6,621 nt of DNA, from the IMG/VR virus record IMGVR_UViG_2534681772_000015. One strand, 5' to 3'. The notes under the pieces are model-generated. The model did no database searches. It worked only from the letters and a program-made list of their open reading frames with translations, and was not told the origin of the DNA. The number at the start of each line of letters is the position of its first letter. Position 1 is the first letter of the stretch. The translations under genes were made by a program, and so were the position numbers. Source of the DNA: a virus (Duplodnaviria > Heunggongvirae > Uroviricota > Caudoviricetes). Shown in pieces: positions 1-6,621 of the stretch.

Positions 1-1158
1 ATGCTCACCGTTAAGCAGATTGAAGCAGCAAAGCCGAAAGAAAAACCATACCGCCTTCTCGATGGTAATGGCCTGTACCTTTATGTCCCTGTATCCGGGA
101 AAAAGGTATGGCAGCTTCGCTACAAGATTGACGGTAAGGAGAAAATCCTGACCGTAGGAAAATATCCGCTAATGACTTTGCAGGAGGCAAGAGATAAAGC
201 ATGGACCGCGAGGAAAGACATCTCGGTTGGCATCGATCCGGTAAAGGCGAAAAAGGCTTCGTCTAACAACAATTCATTTAGTGCGATTTACAAGGAATGG
301 TACGAGCACAAGAAGCAAGTCTGGTCAGTAGGCTATGCAACTGAACTTGCCAAAATGTTTGATGACGACATTTTACCCATCATCGGCGGCCTTGAGATTC
401 AGGATATTGAGCCGATGCAACTGCTGGAAGTAATCCGCAGATTTGAAGATCGCGGTGCAATGGAGCGAGCCAACAAAGCCCGCAGAAGATGCGGCGAGGT
501 TTTCCGTTACGCTATTGTCACTGGTAGGGCTAAATATAACCCGGCACCTGACCTTGCTGACGCCATGAAGGGATACCGCAAGAAGAACTTCCCGTTTCTC
601 CCAGCAGACCAGATCCCTGCATTCAACAAAGCACTGGCAACATTTTCAGGAAGCATCATATCGCTCATTGCGACCAAAGTTTTACGCTACACAGCCCTAA
701 GAACGAAAGAGCTTCGCTCCATGCAATGGAAGAACGTCGATTTTGAAAACAGGATTATCACTATCGACGCCAGTGTGATGAAGGGCCGCAAAATTCATGT
801 GGTTCCTATGTCAGACCAGGTAATTGAACTTCTCACTACGCTAAGCTCAATCACTAAACCAGTATCAGAGTTTGTTTTTGCCGGGCGCAACGATAAGAAG
901 AAGCCAATCTGCGAGAACGCGGTATTGCTTGTGATCAAACAAATTGGCTATGAAGGGCTGGAAAGCGGTCACGGATTCAGGCATGAATTCAGCACGATTA
1001 TGAACGAGCACGAATGGCCTGCTGACGCTATTGAAGTGCAACTGGCACATGCCAACGGCGGATCTGTGCGCGGGATTTACAACCATGCTCAGTATCTCGA
1101 TAAACGCAGAGAAATGATGCAATGGTGGGCGGACTGGCTTGATGAAAAGGTGGAGTGA
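1..1158 (+). CDS. intS: Site-specific tyrosine recombinase / prophage integrase, P4/CP4-57 family, 385 aa, apparently full length
   Basis: ORF begins at window position 1 with the N-terminus MLTVKQIEAAKPKEKPYRLLDGNGLYLYV, typical of P4-type integrase arm-binding domains. The C-terminal catalytic domain carries the tyrosine-recombinase signature: box I region LRTKELR, box II GHGFRHEF (H-x-x-R), and the nucleophile region RGIYNHAQY. Stop TGA at 1156-1158. The symbol is from my recollection that this sequence matches E. coli IntS of the CPS-53/KpLE1 element; not verified by search. Confidence 0.9.
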   Translation: MLTVKQIEAAKPKEKPYRLLDGNGLYLYVPVSGKKVWQLRYKIDGKEKILTVGKYPLMTLQEARDKAWTARKDISVGIDPVKAKKASSNNNSFSAIYKEWYEHKKQVWSVGYATELAKMFDDDILPIIGGLEIQDIEPMQLLEVIRRFEDRGAMERANKARRRCGEVFRYAIVTGRAKYNPAPDLADAMKGYRKKNFPFLPADQIPAFNKALATFSGSIISLIATKVLRYTALRTKELRSMQWKNVDFENRIITIDASVMKGRKIHVVPMSDQVIELLTTLSSITKPVSEFVFAGRNDKKKPICENAVLLVIKQIGYEGLESGHGFRHEFSTIMNEHEWPADAIEVQLAHANGGSVRGIYNHAQYLDKRREMMQWWADWLDEKVE

Positions 1159-1181
1159 TCCGCCTTAACCACTATCGAAGA

Positions 1182-1230
1182 GCACAAAGCCTTGCAATCC
1201 AGTGCAAAGCTTTGTGTGTATGAGTTTTTT
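1182..1230 (+). terminator. Possible intrinsic terminator downstream of the integrase (imperfect long hairpin plus T6 run)
   Basis: Outer arms gcacaaagc (1182-1190) and gctttgtgt (1209-1217) pair, with inner arms ttgca (1192-1196) and tgcaa (1204-1208) around a 7-nt loop. A TTTTTT run at 1225-1230 follows, but it is separated from the stem by 7 nt, so this is not canonical. Confidence 0.3.
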
Positions 1231-1301
1231 CTCACATCACCAGGCAATCATCAAACTCCGTATTCCTGGCGTCATTAATTATGTAAGTGATCACCACGAA
1301 T

Positions 1302-1329
1302 ATAGCCAGTGCAGAATAGCCAGTGCAGA
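1302..1329. repeat. Perfect tandem direct repeat, 2 x 14 bp (ATAGCCAGTGCAGA)
   Basis: Identical 14-mers at 1302-1315 and 1316-1329, read directly from the sequence. Located in the intergenic region between the integrase and the AT-rich cassette. Confidence 0.9.
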
Positions 1330-1561
1330 ACTGTAACCATCATCATCTTCTGGCAGCGCTTCCCTTCTCCCGTTATCCAGATTAACCGGGTGGTGCTGAG
1401 GATGAGTCCGATATCGCTTGATCCTGAATTCCACATCTATAGCAAAGCGGAAGGATGTCTCAATGTCGTGGACACACAGTGTTACAGCCACAAATCTATA
1501 GCCTAAGAAAGGTTTATTTTGTAATTAAAGAAGATTTTAAAAACCAGATTACTCATTCATA

Positions 1562-1590
1562 TAGACACCAATCCCCTACAGTCATAAAAT
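1562..1590 (+). promoter_or_regulatory. Candidate sigma70 promoter for the acyltransferase gene
   Basis: -35-like TAGACA (1562-1567, 5/6 to TTGACA), 17-bp spacer, -10-like TAAAAT (1585-1590, 5/6 to TATAAT). Lies about 45 bp upstream of the ATG at 1633, within AT-rich DNA. Prediction by eye only. Confidence 0.3.
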
Positions 1591-1632
1591 GCCTCTTTTG
1601 AATTGCTTTATCTTCATAACAAGAGGTTATTG

Positions 1633-2652
1633 ATGCTTCGCCACTTAACAGGACTCAGATTTATAGCTGCATTAATGGTTTATTTATGCCATTTAAATAC
1701 AGACTATTTTGGTGTTTTTGTAAAAGAAATGTTTTCCCAGGGATTTATTGGCGTTTCCTTTTTCTTTATTTTATCTGGCTTCATTCTTTCATATTCATAT
1801 GAAGACAAGCTAAAAAATGAAGTAACAAGTAAAAGACAGTTTATTCTTTTAAGATTGGCAAGAATTGTTCCAATGCATCTATTATTAGCCATGCCATTTA
1901 TTTTACTAACCATTCACTTAAAGAACTTTGATTTTTCAAAAACCTTAACAAATATTTTATTAATGCAAAGTTGGATACCAAAGGAGGATTACTACTTCTC
2001 ATTAAATGGTGTATCATGGTCTTTGTCTGATGAGCTGTTTTTTTATTTAATGTTTATTCCGTTGATTTATACATCAATTACAAAGAAAGTAATCACTGCA
2101 ATATCAATTATAACTCTACTATTAACTATATATTTTTTAAAAATTATACAAACAGAAGAACTTAATCACTGGTTATATTATATATTCCCAGTAAGCCGCT
2201 TGGTAGAATTTATTTGCGGTATGATTATTTACGCTTGCTGGAAAAACAGCCGACAGCAGACAGTCGACAGCCTTTTGTTTTTAATTTCACTATTACCTCT
2301 GCTAATAGCTATATATTATAGCAACAACATAAATAATAGTCTACGTTATTCGTTATATTATTTACTCCCCATGGTAATATTCTTTACTTCATGCATCTAT
2401 CTAAGAAATGGAGTCATTCATACTATCCTCAGTTCAAAAACCCTAGAGCTATTAGGGAAATCATCATTTATTTTTTATTTAATTCATCAACCCATTATAT
2501 TATTTTGCTTTAAAATCTTTGGACATAACCCCGGACCACTCTATTTAATAGCGCTCCTTGTTATAATAACCATAGTCTCAATCATACTTTATAAATTAGT
2601 TGAGGAGCCTTTAGAGCTGATGCTAAGAAAACGAATTTTAGCAGTAAAATAA
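1633..2652 (+). CDS. Integral-membrane acyltransferase family 3 protein (Oac/OafA-like O-antigen or polysaccharide O-acetyltransferase), about 339 aa
   Basis: I prefer the ATG at 1633 (preceded by AAGAGG at 1621-1626, 6-nt spacer) over the ORF track's TTG at 1603. The protein carries all three acyltransferase-3 signatures: R-X10-H near the N-terminus (R9...H20 in LRFIAALMVYLCH), FFxISGF-type motif (VSFFFILSGFIL), and VxWSLxxE motif (GVSWSLSDELFFY). It is hydrophobic throughout, consistent with about 10 transmembrane segments and no appended SGNH domain. The gene is about 30% GC in the one 60-nt block I counted, against visibly GC-richer flanks. Stop TAA at 2650-2652. Confidence 0.8.
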   Translation: MLRHLTGLRFIAALMVYLCHLNTDYFGVFVKEMFSQGFIGVSFFFILSGFILSYSYEDKLKNEVTSKRQFILLRLARIVPMHLLLAMPFILLTIHLKNFDFSKTLTNILLMQSWIPKEDYYFSLNGVSWSLSDELFFYLMFIPLIYTSITKKVITAISIITLLLTIYFLKIIQTEELNHWLYYIFPVSRLVEFICGMIIYACWKNSRQQTVDSLLFLISLLPLLIAIYYSNNINNSLRYSLYYLLPMVIFFTSCIYLRNGVIHTILSSKTLELLGKSSFIFYLIHQPIILFCFKIFGHNPGPLYLIALLVIITIVSIILYKLVEEPLELMLRKRILAVK

Positions 2653-2654
2653 AT

Positions 2655-2678
2655 AAAACCGCGCTATTGCGCGGTTTT
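2655..2678. terminator. Bidirectional rho-independent terminator between convergent genes
   Basis: Perfect 10-bp stem AAAACCGCGC (2655-2664) / GCGCGGTTTT (2669-2678) with loop TATT. T-runs flank on both strands, and it sits 3 nt after the acyltransferase stop. The stop codon of the minus-strand small ORF (2664-2666) lies inside the hairpin. Confidence 0.7.
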
Positions 2679-2843
2679 ATCTTCAGGCTTGATGAATTTT
2701 TTACCGTCATATGACCAGCCAATACCAACATCTCCAACACATTTAACTATATCCGCTTTTTCTGACTTAAACTCTGACTTACCATCCCATACAACAAGAT
2801 TTGTAACGACACCATTTTGTACGACTGCATAAATATCGCTCAT
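2664..2843 (-). CDS. Small phage protein of unknown function (59 aa from ATG; 64 aa if the GTG at 2858 is used), translationally coupled to the tail fiber gene
   Basis: ATG at 2841-2843 overlaps the tail-fiber stop TAA (2843-2845) as TAATG. A GGGAG Shine-Dalgarno lies about 8 nt upstream on the minus strand. Sequence MSDIYAVVQNGVVTNLVVWDG...IGWSYDGKKF resembles short beta-rich proteins I recall downstream of phage tail fiber genes. The last four codons (KTAQ) are encoded by the terminator stem. Confidence 0.5.
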   Translation of the reverse strand: MSDIYAVVQNGVVTNLVVWDGKSEFKSEKADIVKCVGDVGIGWSYDGKKFIKPEDKTAQ

Positions 2844-4039
2844 TACTGATACTCCCACACAAGAATATATCCCTGATTTCCATTATTTCCTGTCGCTGGG
2901 CCTGATGACGCCTTATTGTATTTACCTGTCCCGCCAATACCGTATGTCCCAAGCATAGTAGGGGTTATACTTTCAACGCCAATCGCCTGATCATCACCAA
3001 GTCCAATTGCCCCACATAAATTTGATCGTGAAACTGAATGGAACAGAATCCCTTGCCCTGTAGGAATTGGTGCTTCTGTTGCACTTCCCCCTGAAAATGG
3101 AGGTACCTGCTGAACTTGAGTTGATCCCCTTCCTCCCGGACATACAAGCAAATCACCAAAGCTTGTATTCCCGCCGTTACCTCCAGAGCCTCCTGGTCCT
3201 GTTCCTGCTACACCACCGCTTCCAATAGTTACTTGCACGGATTCAGGTATAGACTGATAAAAAAATGCTTTAGCATATGCCCCGTTGGAACCGGCAGCAC
3301 TTACACCACAGTTACCAGATGCAGTTGCCGACAAATTACCACTGGCACCACCTCCGCCAACGGCTTCCACTATAATTTTCGTTACACCAGGTGATTTGAT
3401 ATAAGTCCCAGATGATCCAAATGCCTGAACCCCCAAAAGCCTTCCTGTTCCATCCCCAAGTGTTAAATATTTTAGAGTTTCCGATACGTTTTTTTTACTT
3501 AAAATTTCCCTGCCATTTTGAGTCAGCGCTGTCATATCCATTGTTCCAGCACCTGTAAAAAATGCCAGCCCATCCGGAAATCCAGAAAGAGATGATAACG
3601 CAGTTAAGTTCTGGTTTTTACCCTGTTTTTCATCAATGCCTAAATATGATATAAGATTTAACCATCCATCACTTACTGAGTTTGGATTATTAGTATTTCC
3701 ATCGACAGTGTTCAAATACAAAGCGCTGCCATCATCTGAAACTATAAGAGCGTATTTTGGATAACCATTAATACCGATAGCAAAATCACTATCAAAAAAG
3801 TTTATTGCTCCTGCACTAAACCATCTACATAGAGAAGATAGTTCAAACAGAATTTGATTCATATCTTGACCTTTTGGTGGTAATCCCCCTGCAGATTTAA
3901 GGATCATGGTTATTGGAGGAAATCCTAAGTCATATGATGCTGTATTATCACCTGACGGAGTTGTTGGTAAAATCTCCCCCCTCTGTCCATTGATTCCAAA
4001 TGGTTTAGTTTGTTTTTTGGGCGCGTCTGAACGATTCAT
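2843..4039 (-). CDS. Phage tail fiber protein (398 aa) with a conserved P2-gpH-like internal motif and a glycine-rich C-terminal domain (putative receptor-binding)
   Basis: Residues about 144-196 (LTALSSLSGFPDGLAFFTGAGTMDMTALTQNGREILSKKNVSETLKYLTLG) resemble, from memory, the conserved segment of P2 gpH-type tail fibers (...LTALAGL...FPYFTGNDVASLATLTKVGRDILAK...IEYLGL). The C-terminal about 170 aa is Gly/Ser/Thr/Asn-rich (VGGGGASGN, GSGGVAGTGPGGSGGNGGN). Position is immediately after the gpI-like gene (TAA at 4042-4044, ATG at 4037-4039). Confidence 0.75.
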   Translation of the reverse strand: MNRSDAPKKQTKPFGINGQRGEILPTTPSGDNTASYDLGFPPITMILKSAGGLPPKGQDMNQILFELSSLCRWFSAGAINFFDSDFAIGINGYPKYALIVSDDGSALYLNTVDGNTNNPNSVSDGWLNLISYLGIDEKQGKNQNLTALSSLSGFPDGLAFFTGAGTMDMTALTQNGREILSKKNVSETLKYLTLGDGTGRLLGVQAFGSSGTYIKSPGVTKIIVEAVGGGGASGNLSATASGNCGVSAAGSNGAYAKAFFYQSIPESVQVTIGSGGVAGTGPGGSGGNGGNTSFGDLLVCPGGRGSTQVQQVPPFSGGSATEAPIPTGQGILFHSVSRSNLCGAIGLGDDQAIGVESITPTMLGTYGIGGTGKYNKASSGPATGNNGNQGYILVWEYQ

Positions 4040-4041
4040 AT

Positions 4042-4680
4042 TTAATCTCTGTAAAATGTACCATCATTAAACGGATAAGCATCTGATGAAAATCCAAAGT
4101 AAGGACTTACCACTTGGTTTATTCCTACGAGTACACCACTCGGAACAGGTGTTACATCATAATTCGTAAGAATAGATTCTTCGTATGGTGCAAGTTCAAA
4201 CTCGAATGTTATTCCTACTGTCATATCACGATAATTTACACAGTATACTCTTCCTCTTTGATAAAACAATATCTTTAGAAACCGGTTGATTTCTGGAATT
4301 GTAGCAATACTAATGTTTGTGAACGCTTTGCAAAATATAAGAGTTCTGTAAGCATCATCACTCAGCCTAACATTCGTTGTTTCCTGTATCCCACCAAAAA
4401 ATGGATCTCCATTGAAAGGTGTTGGGTAATTTATGTCCGCACTATTAGCCTCACTGAATCCGAAAGAACTGGTTTCTATTGGAGCATTAATATAACGACT
4501 TATTCCTACTATTTTACCCCACATATCTAGCCCGAATGTTTCACATGTGGTCAAATCCCATACTTTTGCAATAAACTCATCAGTGAAATCATCAAGGTTA
4601 ACTGCCTGATCAAAAGTATCAATGATAGATAGCAATTTTTTGCTTGCTGAGTATTGGGTAAGAATTGTGTCTTCCCACAT
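4042..4680 (-). CDS. Putative baseplate / tail protein (gpI-position protein, 212 aa)
   Basis: Call rests mainly on synteny: it lies between the baseplate-J-like gene and the tail fiber gene, as P2 gpI and Mu gp48 do. Size is compatible. A GAGAGGG Shine-Dalgarno lies just upstream of the ATG at 4678-4680. I do not see the LLPWLAW-type motif I remember from P2 gpI, so the family assignment is tentative. Confidence 0.5.
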   Translation of the reverse strand: MWEDTILTQYSASKKLLSIIDTFDQAVNLDDFTDEFIAKVWDLTTCETFGLDMWGKIVGISRYINAPIETSSFGFSEANSADINYPTPFNGDPFFGGIQETTNVRLSDDAYRTLIFCKAFTNISIATIPEINRFLKILFYQRGRVYCVNYRDMTVGITFEFELAPYEESILTNYDVTPVPSGVLVGINQVVSPYFGFSSDAYPFNDGTFYRD

Positions 4681-4691
4681 ACCGCCCTCTC

Positions 4692-5921
4692 TTACGATAA
4701 AGTAACAGTTATATCTGATTCCTGAATGGTTGGAACTTGATCTATACCCATAGTAACAGCCGGACCGTATAGAGAACCATCCAGAGACACTTCAAGAGAC
4801 AAAATACCTACTGTATCAGGAGATATTGAAATAACAGGGGCATAGTATTTACCAGCATTTATCGTCGAACCAATTCGTGCCTTTCCAATACCCTCATACC
4901 CTCCATTGAACACTGTGGATATTATTCCCTTTACTTGCTTAGATATGTCACTTGGAGGATTTAGAGATGAATCAATATTAACCTTAAAGTAAACTCGCGT
5001 CGGCGATGCTTTTTGCCATTGCATCACATATGATGGATATGGAGGCATGTAATTAACGTTGTCGTAAACAGTGAACGTTGTATCACCATTCATATTGGCA
5101 CCAGGATTATAAGTATTGAATATTGACTCAGCAACATCCTCATCAGCACCACCATAAACACAAATATAAACAGAATGCGCCAGAATAGGGAAATTCGTTG
5201 TTCCTTTATTTACTGTTTCTGCAGTTCTGTTTGACCATACGTAAGCATCAAGCACACCATCAGTCGCAAGTAACGCGGCTAATGTAGATGCGTCCTGATT
5301 TCGACTGTTTCTGGCAACTGATTGTCTCCGGCGAGTTTCAAAGGCGATCCGTGATTCAACATCAACACCAACGACTCCAGGGCTAGTATTATTTACAGCA
5401 TCCCACCCGGAAACGGCTCGATAAATCTGGTTCAGTGAACCTGCGGCACACGGAATCGGCCCGGTTGTTGTGTTGACAAACTGCACATCAACAGAGCCTG
5501 ATGAGGGTATTACAGCATTATCAATTGACTGATATATATACCCGCTCGTATCCACAGCGGTACTCCCTGCTGGTATTGTTGTTCCAACCTGACCAATGCA
5601 TGTTGCTGTAACAACTGTCCCCTGAGCAGCGATCCGTTCCATAAAGTAAATCCGACCAATCCCGTCCTGGAATCTACCGGTTGAGAAGTCAGGGTTTATT
5701 TGATTAAACAAACAAAGAAGCTTGTCGTATACCTGAGCAATGATTTCAGTGTCAGACTGTGCGATCTGACCTTGCGGTGAACTCAGTGACTGACTTGCGC
5801 CACCGCCAAGAACCGTTGACATGTCTGTAAGTCTTCCCGCCAGCACATCCGCTATGTCGGGAACTGAAAGACCGTTTTCAGTGATGGTTACATCAGGAAC
5901 AGCCGTATTTAATATCGTCAT
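4692..5921 (-). CDS. Baseplate J-like protein (P2 gpJ / Mu gp47 / T4 gp6 family), 409 aa
   Basis: Position after a small gpW-like gene with a 4-nt ATGA start/stop overlap (5918-5921). Internal segment ...ESRIAFETRRRQ...TLAALLATDGVLDAYVWSN...VYICVYGG fits the baseplate-J pattern as I remember it. Size is appropriate for the family. Confidence 0.7.
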   Translation of the reverse strand: MTILNTAVPDVTITENGLSVPDIADVLAGRLTDMSTVLGGGASQSLSSPQGQIAQSDTEIIAQVYDKLLCLFNQINPDFSTGRFQDGIGRIYFMERIAAQGTVVTATCIGQVGTTIPAGSTAVDTSGYIYQSIDNAVIPSSGSVDVQFVNTTTGPIPCAAGSLNQIYRAVSGWDAVNNTSPGVVGVDVESRIAFETRRRQSVARNSRNQDASTLAALLATDGVLDAYVWSNRTAETVNKGTTNFPILAHSVYICVYGGADEDVAESIFNTYNPGANMNGDTTFTVYDNVNYMPPYPSYVMQWQKASPTRVYFKVNIDSSLNPPSDISKQVKGIISTVFNGGYEGIGKARIGSTINAGKYYAPVISISPDTVGILSLEVSLDGSLYGPAVTMGIDQVPTIQESDITVTLS

Positions 5922-6262
5922 AAGGTGGCCTGTGCAATATTACCATTGATATCTGTAACGCGGATTGTGCCGCGAGTTGTAAGTGTATTCTTGTCAAAGA
6001 AAACTGATGCCAGAGCATCCTCAACGACGGGTAATTTGAGTGCTTCAGCCTGCATTTTCTGAGCAATAAAACCAGGAGATGGTCGCCTGCCAAGAACTTC
6101 TGCCTCCCATGGAATCCCAAGCGTATTGTCGTAATAACACTCTCCAGAAAACACCAGGCACGCACTGGCGACATCCTGAGCAACAGAATATGATTCTTCT
6201 GCGATCGCCAGATTGCCATTTCCGTCAAGCGTCAAGTCCCACGTAGAAGTGTCCAGTTGCAT
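5918..6262 (-). CDS. Small baseplate wedge protein, gpW/gp25-like (114 aa); translation start uncertain
   Basis: About 115 aa ORF immediately upstream of and overlapping the baseplate-J-like gene, the canonical W-J arrangement. Its ATG (6260-6262) is only 5 bp from the IS end at 6268 and an in-frame stop lies at 6293-6295 inside the IS, so the native upstream region and ribosome-binding site have been replaced. Confidence 0.5.
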   Translation of the reverse strand: MQLDTSTWDLTLDGNGNLAIAEESYSVAQDVASACLVFSGECYYDNTLGIPWEAEVLGRRPSPGFIAQKMQAEALKLPVVEDALASVFFDKNTLTTRGTIRVTDINGNIAQATL

Positions 6263-6267
6263 AGTTC

Positions 6268-6621
6268 TGAACCGCCCCGGGAATCCTGGAGACTAAACTC
6301 CCTGAGAAAGAGGTAAACAGGATGACTAAAAATACTCGTTTTTCCCCCGAAGTCCGTCAGAGGGCGATTCGTATGGTTCTGGAAAGTCAGGGCGAATATG
6401 ACTCACAGTGGGCGGCAATTTGTTCCATTGCCCCAAAGATTGACTGTACACCGGAGACTCTGCGTGTCTGGGTACGCCAGCATGAGCGGGATACCGGAGG
6501 CGGTGATGGCGGGCTCACCACCGCTGAACGTCAGCGTCTGAAAGAGCTGGAACGTGAAAATCGTGAACTGCGCCGCAGTAACGATATCCTTCGCCAGGCT
6601 TCCGCTTATTTTGCGAAGGCG
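6268..6621 (+). mobile_element. IS3-family insertion sequence, left end (IS629/IS1203-like), running off the window
   Basis: The terminus begins with TG (TGAACCGCCCCGGGAATCCTGGAGACTAAACTCCC...) as IS3-family left inverted repeats do, followed by an AAGAGG ribosome-binding site and orfA. The IS629-like assignment is from memory of the OrfA sequence. Confidence 0.85.
6322..6621 (+). CDS. IS3-family transposase OrfA (partial; 3' end beyond window)
   Basis: Translation [100 protein letters not shown] shows the helix-turn-helix plus leucine-zipper organisation of IS3-family OrfA proteins. No stop codon before the window end. Confidence 0.9.

What the first reader, a model, noticed from the sequence alone, without database searches (positions are those of the whole stretch)
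1505..2680. AT-rich single-gene acyltransferase-3 cassette inserted between a P4-type integrase and a tail-fiber module: candidate lysogenic-conversion (surface polysaccharide O-acetylation) gene
The gene is compositionally foreign (about 30% GC in a sampled block, against clearly GC-richer flanking integrase and tail genes). It has its own promoter-like elements and a strong terminator, and encodes an apparently intact Oac/OafA-type membrane acyltransferase with all three motifs (R-X10-H, FFxISGF, VxWSLxxE). Prophage-borne enzymes of this family (Sf6 Oac, Salmonella OafA) acetylate O-antigen, changing serotype and blocking adsorption of O-antigen-dependent phages. If I recall correctly, the K-12 IntS element carries a gtrABS glucosylation cluster at this position, which would make this a cargo swap at a conserved hotspot. 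The substrate and phenotype of this particular low-GC variant are probably uncharacterised.
Basis: partly seen in the sequence, partly recalled or inferred. Interest (0 to 1): 0.7.

Follow-up and report, generated by a model that had tools for sequence, protein, structure and literature searches.

The report
Prophage surface-sugar acetylase with slippery repeat
An E. coli prophage carries, between its integrase and tail-fibre genes, an intact membrane enzyme of the kind that acetylates surface sugars, and the gene holds a 7-base repeat whose copy number varies between strains so that it reads as on or off.

Summary

Corrections:
- The swapped segment is 1229-2684 and includes a HumD/UmuD-like pseudogene remnant.
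- In E. coli the gene travels as a 1172-3633 block with a small ORF and a glycine-rich fibre tip.
- Its synonymous codon usage matches the tail genes, so it is foreign only relative to intS.
- It is only 28% identical to Sf6 Oac, over 155 aa.

New: a heptanucleotide repeat lies inside the gene at 2246-2272. The window has the short in-frame allele. Other E. coli and E. albertii strains carry 1-20 extra units. Multiples of three give full-length proteins; other counts give truncated ones. The flanking 2.46 kb is otherwise identical. This resembles neuO, which occupies the same slot.

The substrate (probably O-antigen) and actual switching are inferred, not shown.

The parts
1..1158 (+). intS, a P4-type tyrosine integrase of an argW-integrated prophage
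   Evidence: Pfam Arm-DNA-bind_3, Phage_int_M and Phage_integrase. RefSeq names it intS, next to tRNA-Arg.
1182..1230 (+). Hairpin plus T-tract after intS. It marks the left edge of the cargo slot.
   Evidence: Fold of 1178-1235 gives -21.3 kcal/mol. The hairpin is shared with K-12, WS4437A-1 and E423, after which the sequences diverge at about 1228-1234.
1229..2684 (+). Segment swapped relative to the closest AT3-less prophages (the 'cassette')
   Evidence: Homology to WS4437A-1 covers 1-1228 and 2685-6269. Three other AT3-less loci (two dusA prophages and AW1.7) also resume at exactly 2685.
1232..1440 (-). Remnant of a HumD/UmuD-like S24 peptidase gene (pseudogene). It contains a 14-bp tandem duplication at 1302-1329.
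   Evidence: RefSeq calls it 'S24 family peptidase, frameshifted, incomplete'. It is 84.6% identical to an intact gene in Nissle 1917. Duplication.
1562..1590 (+). Candidate sigma-70 promoter, TAGACA-17-TAAAAT
   Evidence: It is the only + strand candidate. Both hexamers are invariant between E. coli and Citrobacter, while 3 spacer bases differ. It is not statistically exceptional.
1621..1626 (+). Shine-Dalgarno sequence AAGAGG, 6 nt before ATG 1633
1633..2652 (+). AT3-only membrane O-acyltransferase, 339 aa, intact
2246..2272 (+). Heptanucleotide repeat tract (ACAGCCG ACAGCAG ACAGTCG ACAGCC). It encodes the K/R-rich loop between model helices 186-205 and 213-228. The window has the short, imperfect, in-frame allele.
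   Evidence: TRF gives period 7, 3.9 copies. Expanded alleles in other strains.
2651..2682 (.). Bidirectional intrinsic terminator between the convergent AT3 gene and tail operon. It also encodes the last codons and the stop of the small ORF.
   Evidence: It is 96.9% identical to the Citrobacter version.
2664..2843 (-). 59-aa ORF that always accompanies the fibre tip (PHROG 14370, function unknown)
   Evidence: It is present in all 21 loci tested. Its C-terminus differs with and without AT3.
2843..4039 (-). Tail fibre, 398 aa, with a Gly_rich_2 C-terminal domain. Only the tip (2843 to about 3633) travels with the AT3 gene.
   Evidence: Pfam and PHROG. Block boundaries.
6270..6621 (+). End of an IS3-family insertion sequence. 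It interrupts the prophage 7 nt upstream of the start codon (6262) of the gene at 5918-6262.
   Evidence: The TW10590 and WS4437A-1 homology ends at 6269.

Best explanation
The gene is prophage cargo that encodes a stand-alone AT3 transmembrane O-acyltransferase.

**Transcription unit.** It runs from its own promoter towards the tail operon and is insulated from that operon by a bidirectional terminator. It can therefore be expressed in the lysogen independently of late genes.

**Proposed mechanism.** The enzyme admits cytoplasmic acetyl-CoA into a membrane pore lined by R9, H20, R74 and R77. It then transfers the acetyl group to a sugar of an envelope polysaccharide at the periplasmic face. 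The most likely acceptor is the O-antigen. The effect would be a change of surface antigen that hinders adsorption of phages using that glycan (lysogenic conversion and superinfection exclusion).

**Spread.** In E. coli the gene moves between unrelated prophages by recombination, as a block of about 2.4 kb that also carries a small ORF and a glycine-rich tail-fibre tip.

**Repeat tract.** A 7-nt repeat in the cytoplasmic TM6-TM7 loop makes the gene a contingency locus. The window holds the short in-frame (on) allele. In other strains slippage has added 1-20 units. The protein is full-length only when the number added is a multiple of three.

**Shown:** family membership, fold, motifs, purifying selection, gene anatomy, the cargo slot, the travelling block, and the repeat polymorphism with its frame consequences.

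**Inferred:** acetyl as the donor group, O-antigen as the acceptor, phage exclusion, and reversible switching within a clone.
For: **Family and fold**
-. The motif definitions come from PMC7448272 and the pore/acetyl-CoA model from PMC9833829.

**Selection**
- dN/dS is 0.136 with pS 0.456 against the Citrobacter orthologue.
- The gene is intact in all 21 loci tested.
- The exact protein is found on about 499 contigs.

**Anatomy**
-. The layout is the same as in Sf6 and phiV10.

**Slot cargo modifies surface glycans**
- gtrABS, O-antigen polymerase, neuO with (AAGACTC)x30.

**Distant homologues**
- Two of four sampled sit in Wzx/Wzy-type or WecA-type polysaccharide clusters.

**Travelling block**
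- It occurs at six or more sites and in several prophage types.
- The 300709 copy still carries an intS 3' fragment.
- The same trio is present in Citrobacter.

**Repeat tract**
- TRF detects it.
- Simulated addition of units reproduces the exact lengths and C-terminal tails of database proteins for n = 0-9, 12, 14, 15 and 20.
- Modules with +6 or +7 units differ from a short-tract module by 0-1 substitutions in 2.46 kb.
Against: - No experiment bears on this protein.
- Identity to any characterised AT3 enzyme is at most 28%, and only partial, so substrate cannot be transferred by homology.
- NeuO, in the same slot, acts on capsule rather than O-antigen.
- Only one carrier serotype is known (O128:H12).
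- The fibre tip also occurs without AT3, so the linkage could be hitch-hiking rather than functional coupling.
- The window's tract has only 3.9 imperfect units, is the allele in 22 of the 24 loci where the tract was read, and is likely to be stable.
- Switching within a clone has not been observed.
- The promoter is a consensus match only.
Confidence: 0.6

Rival explanations
1. The enzyme is active, but its acceptor is not the O-antigen. It could be a capsule or K antigen, enterobacterial common antigen, colanic acid, LPS core, periplasmic glucans or peptidoglycan. The acyl group might also not be acetyl.
For: - AT3 proteins act on all of these acceptors (PMC9558356).
- In E. coli, WecH acetylates ECA and OpgC succinylates glucans (same review).
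- NeuO, in the same intS slot, targets the K1 capsule (PMC13001214).
- Carriers come from varied human and pig strains, which fits a widely shared acceptor.
- Two of four distant homologues are not in polysaccharide clusters.
Against: - Most cargo seen in this slot acts on O-antigen (gtrABS, O-antigen polymerase).
- The closest annotated phage relative and PHROG 3333/6705 are O-antigen acetylase families, though by annotation only.
- Two of four distant homologues lie in Wzx/Wzy-type or WecA-type clusters.
Confidence: 0.3
2. The repeat-length differences are ordinary indel variation and gene decay in a tolerant loop, not an adaptive on/off switch. The gene in this window is simply constitutive.
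For: - The 4-unit imperfect allele dominates: 22 of the 24 loci where the tract was read, and about 499 contigs.
- Another frameshift allele arises at a T6 run (L055, P0027), which shows plain decay also occurs.
- There are no within-strain data.
Against: - Every step from +0 to +9 units is observed, plus +12, +14, +15 and +20, in both out-of-frame classes.
- Several different unit variants have expanded independently (SRQQTAD, SRQSTVD, SRQPTAD).
- The tract is the only difference in otherwise identical 2.46-kb modules.
- The Citrobacter orthologue has no repeat there.
- The pattern parallels neuO, for which switching has been measured.
Confidence: 0.25
3. The gene is a functionless passenger that hitch-hikes with the tail-fibre tip in decaying prophages.
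For: - The prophage in the window is interrupted by an IS element.
- The Citrobacter copies sit in prophage remnants of about 4 kb.
- The fibre tip occurs without the gene.
Against: - dN/dS is 0.136 over a divergence of pS 0.46.
- All catalytic motif residues are invariant.
- The gene is intact even where the Citrobacter fibre gene is split.
Confidence: 0.04

Closest known systems
Oac of Shigella phage Sf6 (AT3-only O-antigen acetylase)
   Same: - AT3-only architecture of about 335 aa with 10 TMH.
- R-X10-H, FFxISG and RxxR motifs.
- The same gene order: int, acetylase with its own promoter and terminator, then a convergent receptor-binding protein gene.
   Different: - Only 28% identity over the N-terminal 155 aa.
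- Sf6 is a P22-like podovirus with a tailspike. Here the neighbour is a baseplate-and-fibre tail.
- No repeat tract is annotated for the Sf6 oac gene.
NeuO of prophage CUS-3 (phase-variable K1 capsule O-acetyltransferase)
   Same: - Cargo in the same intS slot of E. coli prophages.
- An intragenic heptanucleotide repeat, with full-length protein only when the count is divisible by three (PMC13001214).
- A role in excluding phages.
   Different: - An unrelated enzyme class: a soluble hexapeptide-repeat protein against a membrane AT3 protein.
- The repeat unit is AAGACTC at the 5' end of the gene, against ACAGCCG-type units in a mid-gene loop.
- neuO tracts are long in most strains (3-53 units), whereas the AT3 tract is short in most carriers.
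Haemophilus influenzae OafA (phase-variable AT3 LOS acetylase)
   Same: An AT3 enzyme whose expression is switched by a simple sequence repeat in the gene (PMC9558356).
   Different: - It uses tetranucleotide repeats.
- It is chromosomal, not prophage cargo.
- It is a different AT3 lineage and was not compared by sequence here.
O-acetyltransferase gp49 of Escherichia phage TL-2011b, and Oac of phiV10
   Same: - TL-2011b gp49 is the closest phage protein: 36% identity over 351 aa, E 1e-58.
- phiV10 Oac lies convergent to the tail fibre and gives superinfection immunity according to the record's annotation.
   Different: - TL-2011b gp49 is named by annotation only.
- phiV10 Oac shows no significant similarity by BLASTP.
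Salmonella OafA/OafB (AT3-SGNH)
   Same: The AT3 domain motifs and the proposed acetyl-CoA pore. There is also a PHROG 6705 match.
   Different: The window protein has no 11th helix and no fused SGNH domain. In one relative prophage, a separate 198-aa GDSL gene occupies the same slot in place of the AT3 gene.
gtrABS of K-12 CPS-53/KplE1
   Same: The same slot directly after intS, and the same role class of O-antigen modification.
   Different: It performs glucosylation with three genes. There is no sequence relationship.

Membership tests
Acyltransferase-3 (PF01757) / TmAT fold | Match to the Pfam model above its gathering score, over the full length | tested here: met
   106.3 bits against a cutoff of 31, E 2.2e-30, profile positions 4-325 of 326
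Acyltransferase-3 (PF01757) / TmAT fold | R/K-X10-H motif in TMH1 | tested here: met
   R9 and H20, both invariant in alignments A1 and A2. Motif definition from PMC7448272.
Acyltransferase-3 (PF01757) / TmAT fold | FFXISG motif in TMH2 | tested here: met
   F44-F-I-L-S48-G49. F44, S48 and G49 are invariant.
Acyltransferase-3 (PF01757) / TmAT fold | RXXR motif | tested here: met
   R74 is invariant and R77 is at least 90% conserved.
Acyltransferase-3 (PF01757) / TmAT fold | Ten transmembrane helices with both termini in the cytoplasm (AT3-only architecture) | tested here: met
   The AF2 model (pLDDT 93.2) has about 10 long helices. K/R-rich loops alternate as expected for an N-in/C-in topology (read from the sequence). 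Topology itself was not measured.
Acyltransferase-3 (PF01757) / TmAT fold | Fold shared with solved acyl-CoA-dependent transmembrane acyltransferases | tested here: met
Acyltransferase-3 (PF01757) / TmAT fold | Acyl transfer to an extracytoplasmic carbohydrate | not testable with these tools
   Needs biochemistry or glycan structure analysis.
Serotype-converting phage Oac (Sf6 type) | Close sequence relationship to Sf6 Oac or its OacB/C/D relatives | tested here: not met
   28% identity over 155 aa to Sf6 Oac, E 1e-4. Sf6 did not appear among the six tblastn hits in the phage collection. OacB, OacC and OacD were not available for comparison.
Serotype-converting phage Oac (Sf6 type) | Placement between the integrase and a convergent receptor-binding protein gene, with its own promoter and terminator | tested here: met
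Serotype-converting phage Oac (Sf6 type) | O-acetylation of the O-antigen, and immunity to the carrying phage | not testable with these tools
   Inference only.
AT3-SGNH acetyltransferases (OafA/OafB/OatA) | 11th helix plus a fused periplasmic SGNH domain | tested here: not met
   The protein is 339 aa, and Pfam finds only Acyl_transf_3.
Repeat-mediated contingency locus (neuO type) | Tandem repeat inside the CDS with a unit length not divisible by three | tested here: met
   Period 7 at 2246-2272.
Repeat-mediated contingency locus (neuO type) | Copy number varies among close relatives, giving both in-frame and out-of-frame alleles | tested here: met
   Added units of 0-9, 12, 14, 15 and 20 were observed. 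Flanks differ by 0-1 substitutions.
Repeat-mediated contingency locus (neuO type) | A long perfect tract in this window's own allele | tested here: not met
   3.9 copies at 80% match. This allele is probably stable.
Repeat-mediated contingency locus (neuO type) | Reversible switching within a clone | not testable with these tools
   Needs read-level or fragment analysis.

The most novel reading that the evidence does not exclude
The intS/argW prophage slot breeds contingency loci. An AT3 acetylase gained a heptanucleotide repeat de novo within Escherichia (it is absent from the Citrobacter orthologue). This converges on the mechanism of the unrelated neuO gene in the same slot, giving reversible on/off acetylation of the glycan that the linked glycine-rich fibre tip recognises. 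The alternative cargo at the identical junction, a GDSL esterase, would be the matching de-acetylating counter-move.
Probability: 0.25. Interest if true: 0.7.

Novelty: new variant of a known kind. Interest (0 to 1): 0.5.

Why it matters
Prophage acetylases change serotype, vaccine epitopes and phage sensitivity. This gene is present in hundreds of E. coli and E. albertii assemblies, many from enteric pathogens and livestock, yet nobody has described it. If the repeat does switch the gene, it would be a second case of heptad-driven acetylation switching in E. coli, in a different enzyme family, and it would show how such switches arise. It also gives a simple sequence marker (repeat count modulo three) for predicting the surface phenotype from genomes. 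Finally, it offers a tractable pairing of fibre tip and receptor-modifying gene for studying superinfection exclusion.

Tried and rejected
- **NCBIfam and PADLOC:** no match for the AT3 protein, the small ORF or the GDSL protein.
- **PDB by sequence:** nothing. Foldseek against the PDB also found nothing significant.
- **Rfam on the whole window:** only sub-threshold hits, on the terminator hairpin. There is nothing in the conserved leader.
- **A hairpin sequestering the SD in the 5' UTR:** considered and dropped. The fold is weak (-3.9 kcal/mol), and the Citrobacter changes weaken the pairing rather than compensate for it.
- **S24 remnant as a CI-type repressor:** rejected. Its relatives are HumD/UmuD-like. 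Pfam does not recognise the short remnant ORFs.
- **Differential decay (fibre tip lost, AT3 kept):** not seen. Both are intact in all 21 loci.
- **Scan of species-representative genomes with the fibre tip:** found nothing.
- **The degenerate heptad pattern in viral contigs:** 11 of its 13 hits are unrelated sequences without AT3 homology.
- **Carrier serotypes from papers:** only CP52E (O128:H12) was recovered.
Full report
**1. What is in the sequence**

The window reads as follows:

| Coordinates | Strand | Feature |
|---|---|---|
| 1-1158 | + | intS |
| 1159-1632 | | spacer of about 470 bp |
| 1633-2652 | + | ORF |
| 2664-2843 | - | 59-aa ORF |
| 2843-4039 | - | 398-aa tail fibre with a Gly_rich_2 domain |
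| 4042-4680 | - | DUF2612 wedge protein |
| 4692-5921 | - | baseplate J |
| 5918-6262 | - | small baseplate gene |

The best match among complete genomes is E. coli TW10590. There the locus lies beside tRNA-Arg (argW) and RefSeq annotates the ORF as 'acyltransferase family protein' starting at ATG 1633. The last 352 bases of the window are the end of an IS3-family element, which TW10590 lacks at that position.

**2. The protein**

- It matches Pfam Acyl_transf_3 nearly end to end, at E 2.2e-30, and PHROG 3333 'O-acetyltransferase' at E 6e-51.
- In an alignment of 34 sequences that includes Sf6 Oac, the invariant columns include R9, H20, F44, S48, G49, R74, W129, E134 and G196. R77 is at least 90% conserved.
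- These correspond to the R/K-X10-H, FFXISG and RXXR motifs and the invariant TMH6 glycine that define characterised AT3 acetyltransferases (PMC7448272).
- An AlphaFold model built on 32 homologues is confident (pLDDT 93.2, pTM 0.92) and shows about ten long helices.
- There is no SGNH domain, so this is an AT3-only enzyme of the Oac type, not the OafA type.

**3. Relationship to known enzymes**

- Identity to Sf6 Oac is 28% over 155 residues. Similarity to phiV10 Oac is not significant.
- The closest phage protein is the annotated but untested gp49 of TL-2011b, at 36%.
- Among 5.8 billion proteins, the exact sequence occurs on about 499 contigs, all named E. coli. One 83% relative is found in Citrobacter portucalensis, and everything else is at 45% or below.
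- No paper in the searched library mentions the accession.

**4. Is it under selection?**

Against the Citrobacter orthologue, dN/dS is 0.136 with pS 0.456. The gene has no stop codons in any of the 21 loci tested.

**5. Composition**

The CDS has 29.7% GC against 47.8% for intS. However, its GC3 (0.279) equals that of the fibre (0.261) and wedge gene (0.258). Its synonymous codon usage correlates with the tail genes (0.37-0.47) as well as they do with each other, and poorly with intS (0.18). The gene is therefore not foreign relative to the tail module. Much of the low GC reflects a membrane protein's amino-acid make-up.

**6. Transcription signals**

- The terminator at 2651-2682 is strong and works on both strands.
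- Promoter-like sites are fewer than chance would give (3 against 7.8).
- The single + strand candidate (1562-1590) lies 43 nt upstream of the ATG. Both of its hexamers are unchanged in Citrobacter, although three spacer bases differ.

**7. Boundaries and mobility**

- Against the closest AT3-less prophage (WS4437A-1), homology covers 1-1228 and 2685-6269.
- Three further AT3-less loci that carry the same fibre tip (two dusA prophages and AW1.7) resume homology at exactly 2685.
- The swapped segment is therefore 1229-2684.
- Its left edge follows the intS terminator.
- Its right edge lies inside the small ORF, whose last codons and stop are supplied by the cassette's terminator hairpin.
- The cassette also holds a frameshifted remnant of a HumD/UmuD-like S24 peptidase gene.
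- In E. coli a larger block, 1172-3633, is shared at 98% identity or more by most copies, and at 92% by the LHM10-1/CP52E variant, whose fibre tip has diverged. It occurs in prophages of different tail types at six or more sites: argW, pphA/pinE, paoD, ybhB-bioA and two others.
- The copy in strain 300709 still carries the last 145 nt of intS. The intS setting is therefore the likely source.
- In Citrobacter the same trio is kept at 76% DNA identity.

**8. Linkage to the fibre tip**

Every AT3 copy seen has the small ORF and the fibre tip beside it. The reverse does not hold.
- Of 12 complete genomes with the tip, seven have AT3, one has an intact GDSL esterase, two (both AW1.7 assemblies) have a split GDSL gene, and two have neither.
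- Of 16 viral contigs with the tip, 11 have AT3.

Functional coupling of the enzyme with the fibre's receptor is thus possible but not shown.

**9. The slot**

In genomes sampled by intS similarity, the position after intS holds:
- gtrABS (K-12, MLI106K1);
- an O-antigen polymerase (ws5-3);
- a hexapeptide acetyltransferase (Ec15103);
- a GDSL esterase (WS4437A-1);
- this AT3 gene;
- no cargo gene (EC6622, WP7-S17, E423, an O157:H7 strain).

The Ec15103 gene begins ATGTC(AAGACTC)x30, so it is neuO. Seroconversion genes near int-att at argW are established knowledge (Kapi1 preprint). Sf6 and phiV10 show the same layout.

**10. The repeat tract**

Three viral-contig copies of the gene looked altered. 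Two carry insertions of 84 nt and 56 nt made of 7-nt units at 2245-2258. The third (L055) has a 1-nt deletion in a T6 run at 2471.

Tandem Repeats Finder reports a period-7 tract of 3.9 copies at 2246-2272 in the window.

The protein database holds a ladder of alleles. I simulated the addition of n ACAGCCG units. The simulation reproduces the exact lengths and C-terminal tails of the observed proteins:

| Reading frame | Units added (n) | Product length (aa) |
|---|---|---|
| In frame | 0, 3, 6, 9, 12, 15 | 339, 346, 353, 360, 367, 374 |
| Frame +1 (tail ...RQPFVFNFTITSANSYIL) | 1, 4, 7 | 231, 238, 245 |
| Frame +2 (tail ...RQSTAFCF) | 2, 5, 8, 14, 20 | 221, 228, 235, 249, 263 |

Further points:
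- The alleles come from E. coli and E. albertii.
- Modules with +6 or +7 units differ from a short-tract module at the same chromosomal site by 0-1 substitutions in 2.46 kb.
- The tract encodes the K/R-rich loop between model helices 186-205 and 213-228, which is probably cytoplasmic.
- The Citrobacter orthologue has no repeat there.
- This mirrors neuO, whose heptad tract gives full-length protein only when the count is divisible by three (PMC13001214).
- Known phase-variable AT3 genes use tetranucleotide repeats (H. influenzae oafA) or Dam methylation (Salmonella oafB).
- I found no description of this tract in the searched library.
- The window's own allele is short, imperfect and in frame. 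It is also the allele in 22 of the 24 loci where the tract was read.

**11. Substrate**

Nothing here identifies the substrate. In favour of a surface polysaccharide, and the O-antigen in particular:
- the nature of the other slot cargo;
- the PHROG families;
- two of four distant homologues lying in Wzx/Wzy-type or WecA-type clusters.

Against certainty:
- neuO in the same slot targets capsule;
- AT3 enzymes have many acceptors;
- only one carrier serotype could be found (O128:H12).

**12. Unexplained**

Between E. coli and Citrobacter, identity differs sharply by segment:

| Segment | Identity |
|---|---|
| Leader and first ~80 nt of the CDS | 92-98% |
| Terminator | 97% |
| S24 remnant | ~91% |
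| AT3 body | ~85% |
| Small ORF and fibre | 50-73% |

Third codon positions are also conserved in the first 25 codons (2/25 against 96/315, p = 0.02). This fits either a recombination mosaic or a nucleotide-level signal. Rfam finds nothing there.

**13. Verdict**

As first described, the finding is a new member of a well-known kind and would rate low to moderate interest. The intragenic heptad repeat, with its on/off allele ladder and its parallel to neuO in the same slot, raises it to a new variant of a known kind with moderate interest.

Noticed in passing
window 6270-6621: End of an IS3-family element (it starts TGAACCGCCCCGGG). It is inserted 7 nt upstream of the start codon of the gene at 5918-6262 and cuts the prophage. 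TW10590 and WS4437A-1 lack it here.
   Followed up: partly
window 4231-4236; L001 10236-11567: TW10590 has a different IS3-family insertion inside the DUF2612 wedge gene. The window lacks it, so the window's source strain is a close relative of TW10590 rather than TW10590 itself.
   Followed up: no
window 1501-1714 compared with L019/L022: The AT3 leader and the first ~80 nt of the CDS are 92-98% identical between E. coli and Citrobacter, whereas synonymous sites in the rest of the gene differ at 46%. Third codon positions are conserved too. Either a recombination tract or a regulatory signal would explain this.
   Followed up: partly
L002 4246-4842 (-); L036 3527-4122 (-): A 198-aa GDSL/SGNH esterase without an obvious signal peptide occupies the same junction in place of AT3 in WS4437A-1. 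It lies on the tail-operon strand. In AW1.7 the gene is split in two.
   Followed up: partly
window 2664-2684: The last seven codons and the stop of the 59-aa ORF lie inside the AT3 cassette's terminator hairpin. AT3-less loci give this ORF a different, longer C-terminus (68 aa).
   Followed up: yes
window 1302-1329; L019: The S24 remnant carries a 14-bp tandem duplication in E. coli and a 52-bp deletion in Citrobacter. This is independent decay of a pseudogene that has stayed linked to AT3.
   Followed up: yes
L040 5097-5957 (-): neuO with 30 AAGACTC repeats sits in the intS slot of strain Ec15103, next to a 981-aa tailspike.
   Followed up: yes
L039 5139-6482 (+): A 447-aa protein annotated as an O-antigen polymerase is the cargo in the intS slot of strain ws5-3. 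It has no Pfam match.
   Followed up: no
CP52E (NZ_CP075731) and AW1.7 (NZ_CP072539): The one AT3 carrier with a published serotype is O128:H12. AW1.7, which has the related fibre tip with a broken GDSL gene and no AT3, is labelled O128ac:H12. This is a possible lead to the acceptor glycan.
   Followed up: no
L055; P0027 (window equivalent 2471): A second kind of inactive allele: a 1-nt deletion in a T6 run gives a 282-aa product.
   Followed up: partly
L010 5384-6220 (+): In non-intS contexts, two ORFs of 190 aa (PHROG 4350, function unknown) and 57 aa precede the module in several otherwise different prophages.
   Followed up: no
L004 10843-11647; L005; L006: RefSeq leaves the chimeric fibre gene unannotated or marks it as a partial pseudogene in several genomes, although an uninterrupted ORF of 366-382 aa is called by another gene finder.
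   Followed up: partly
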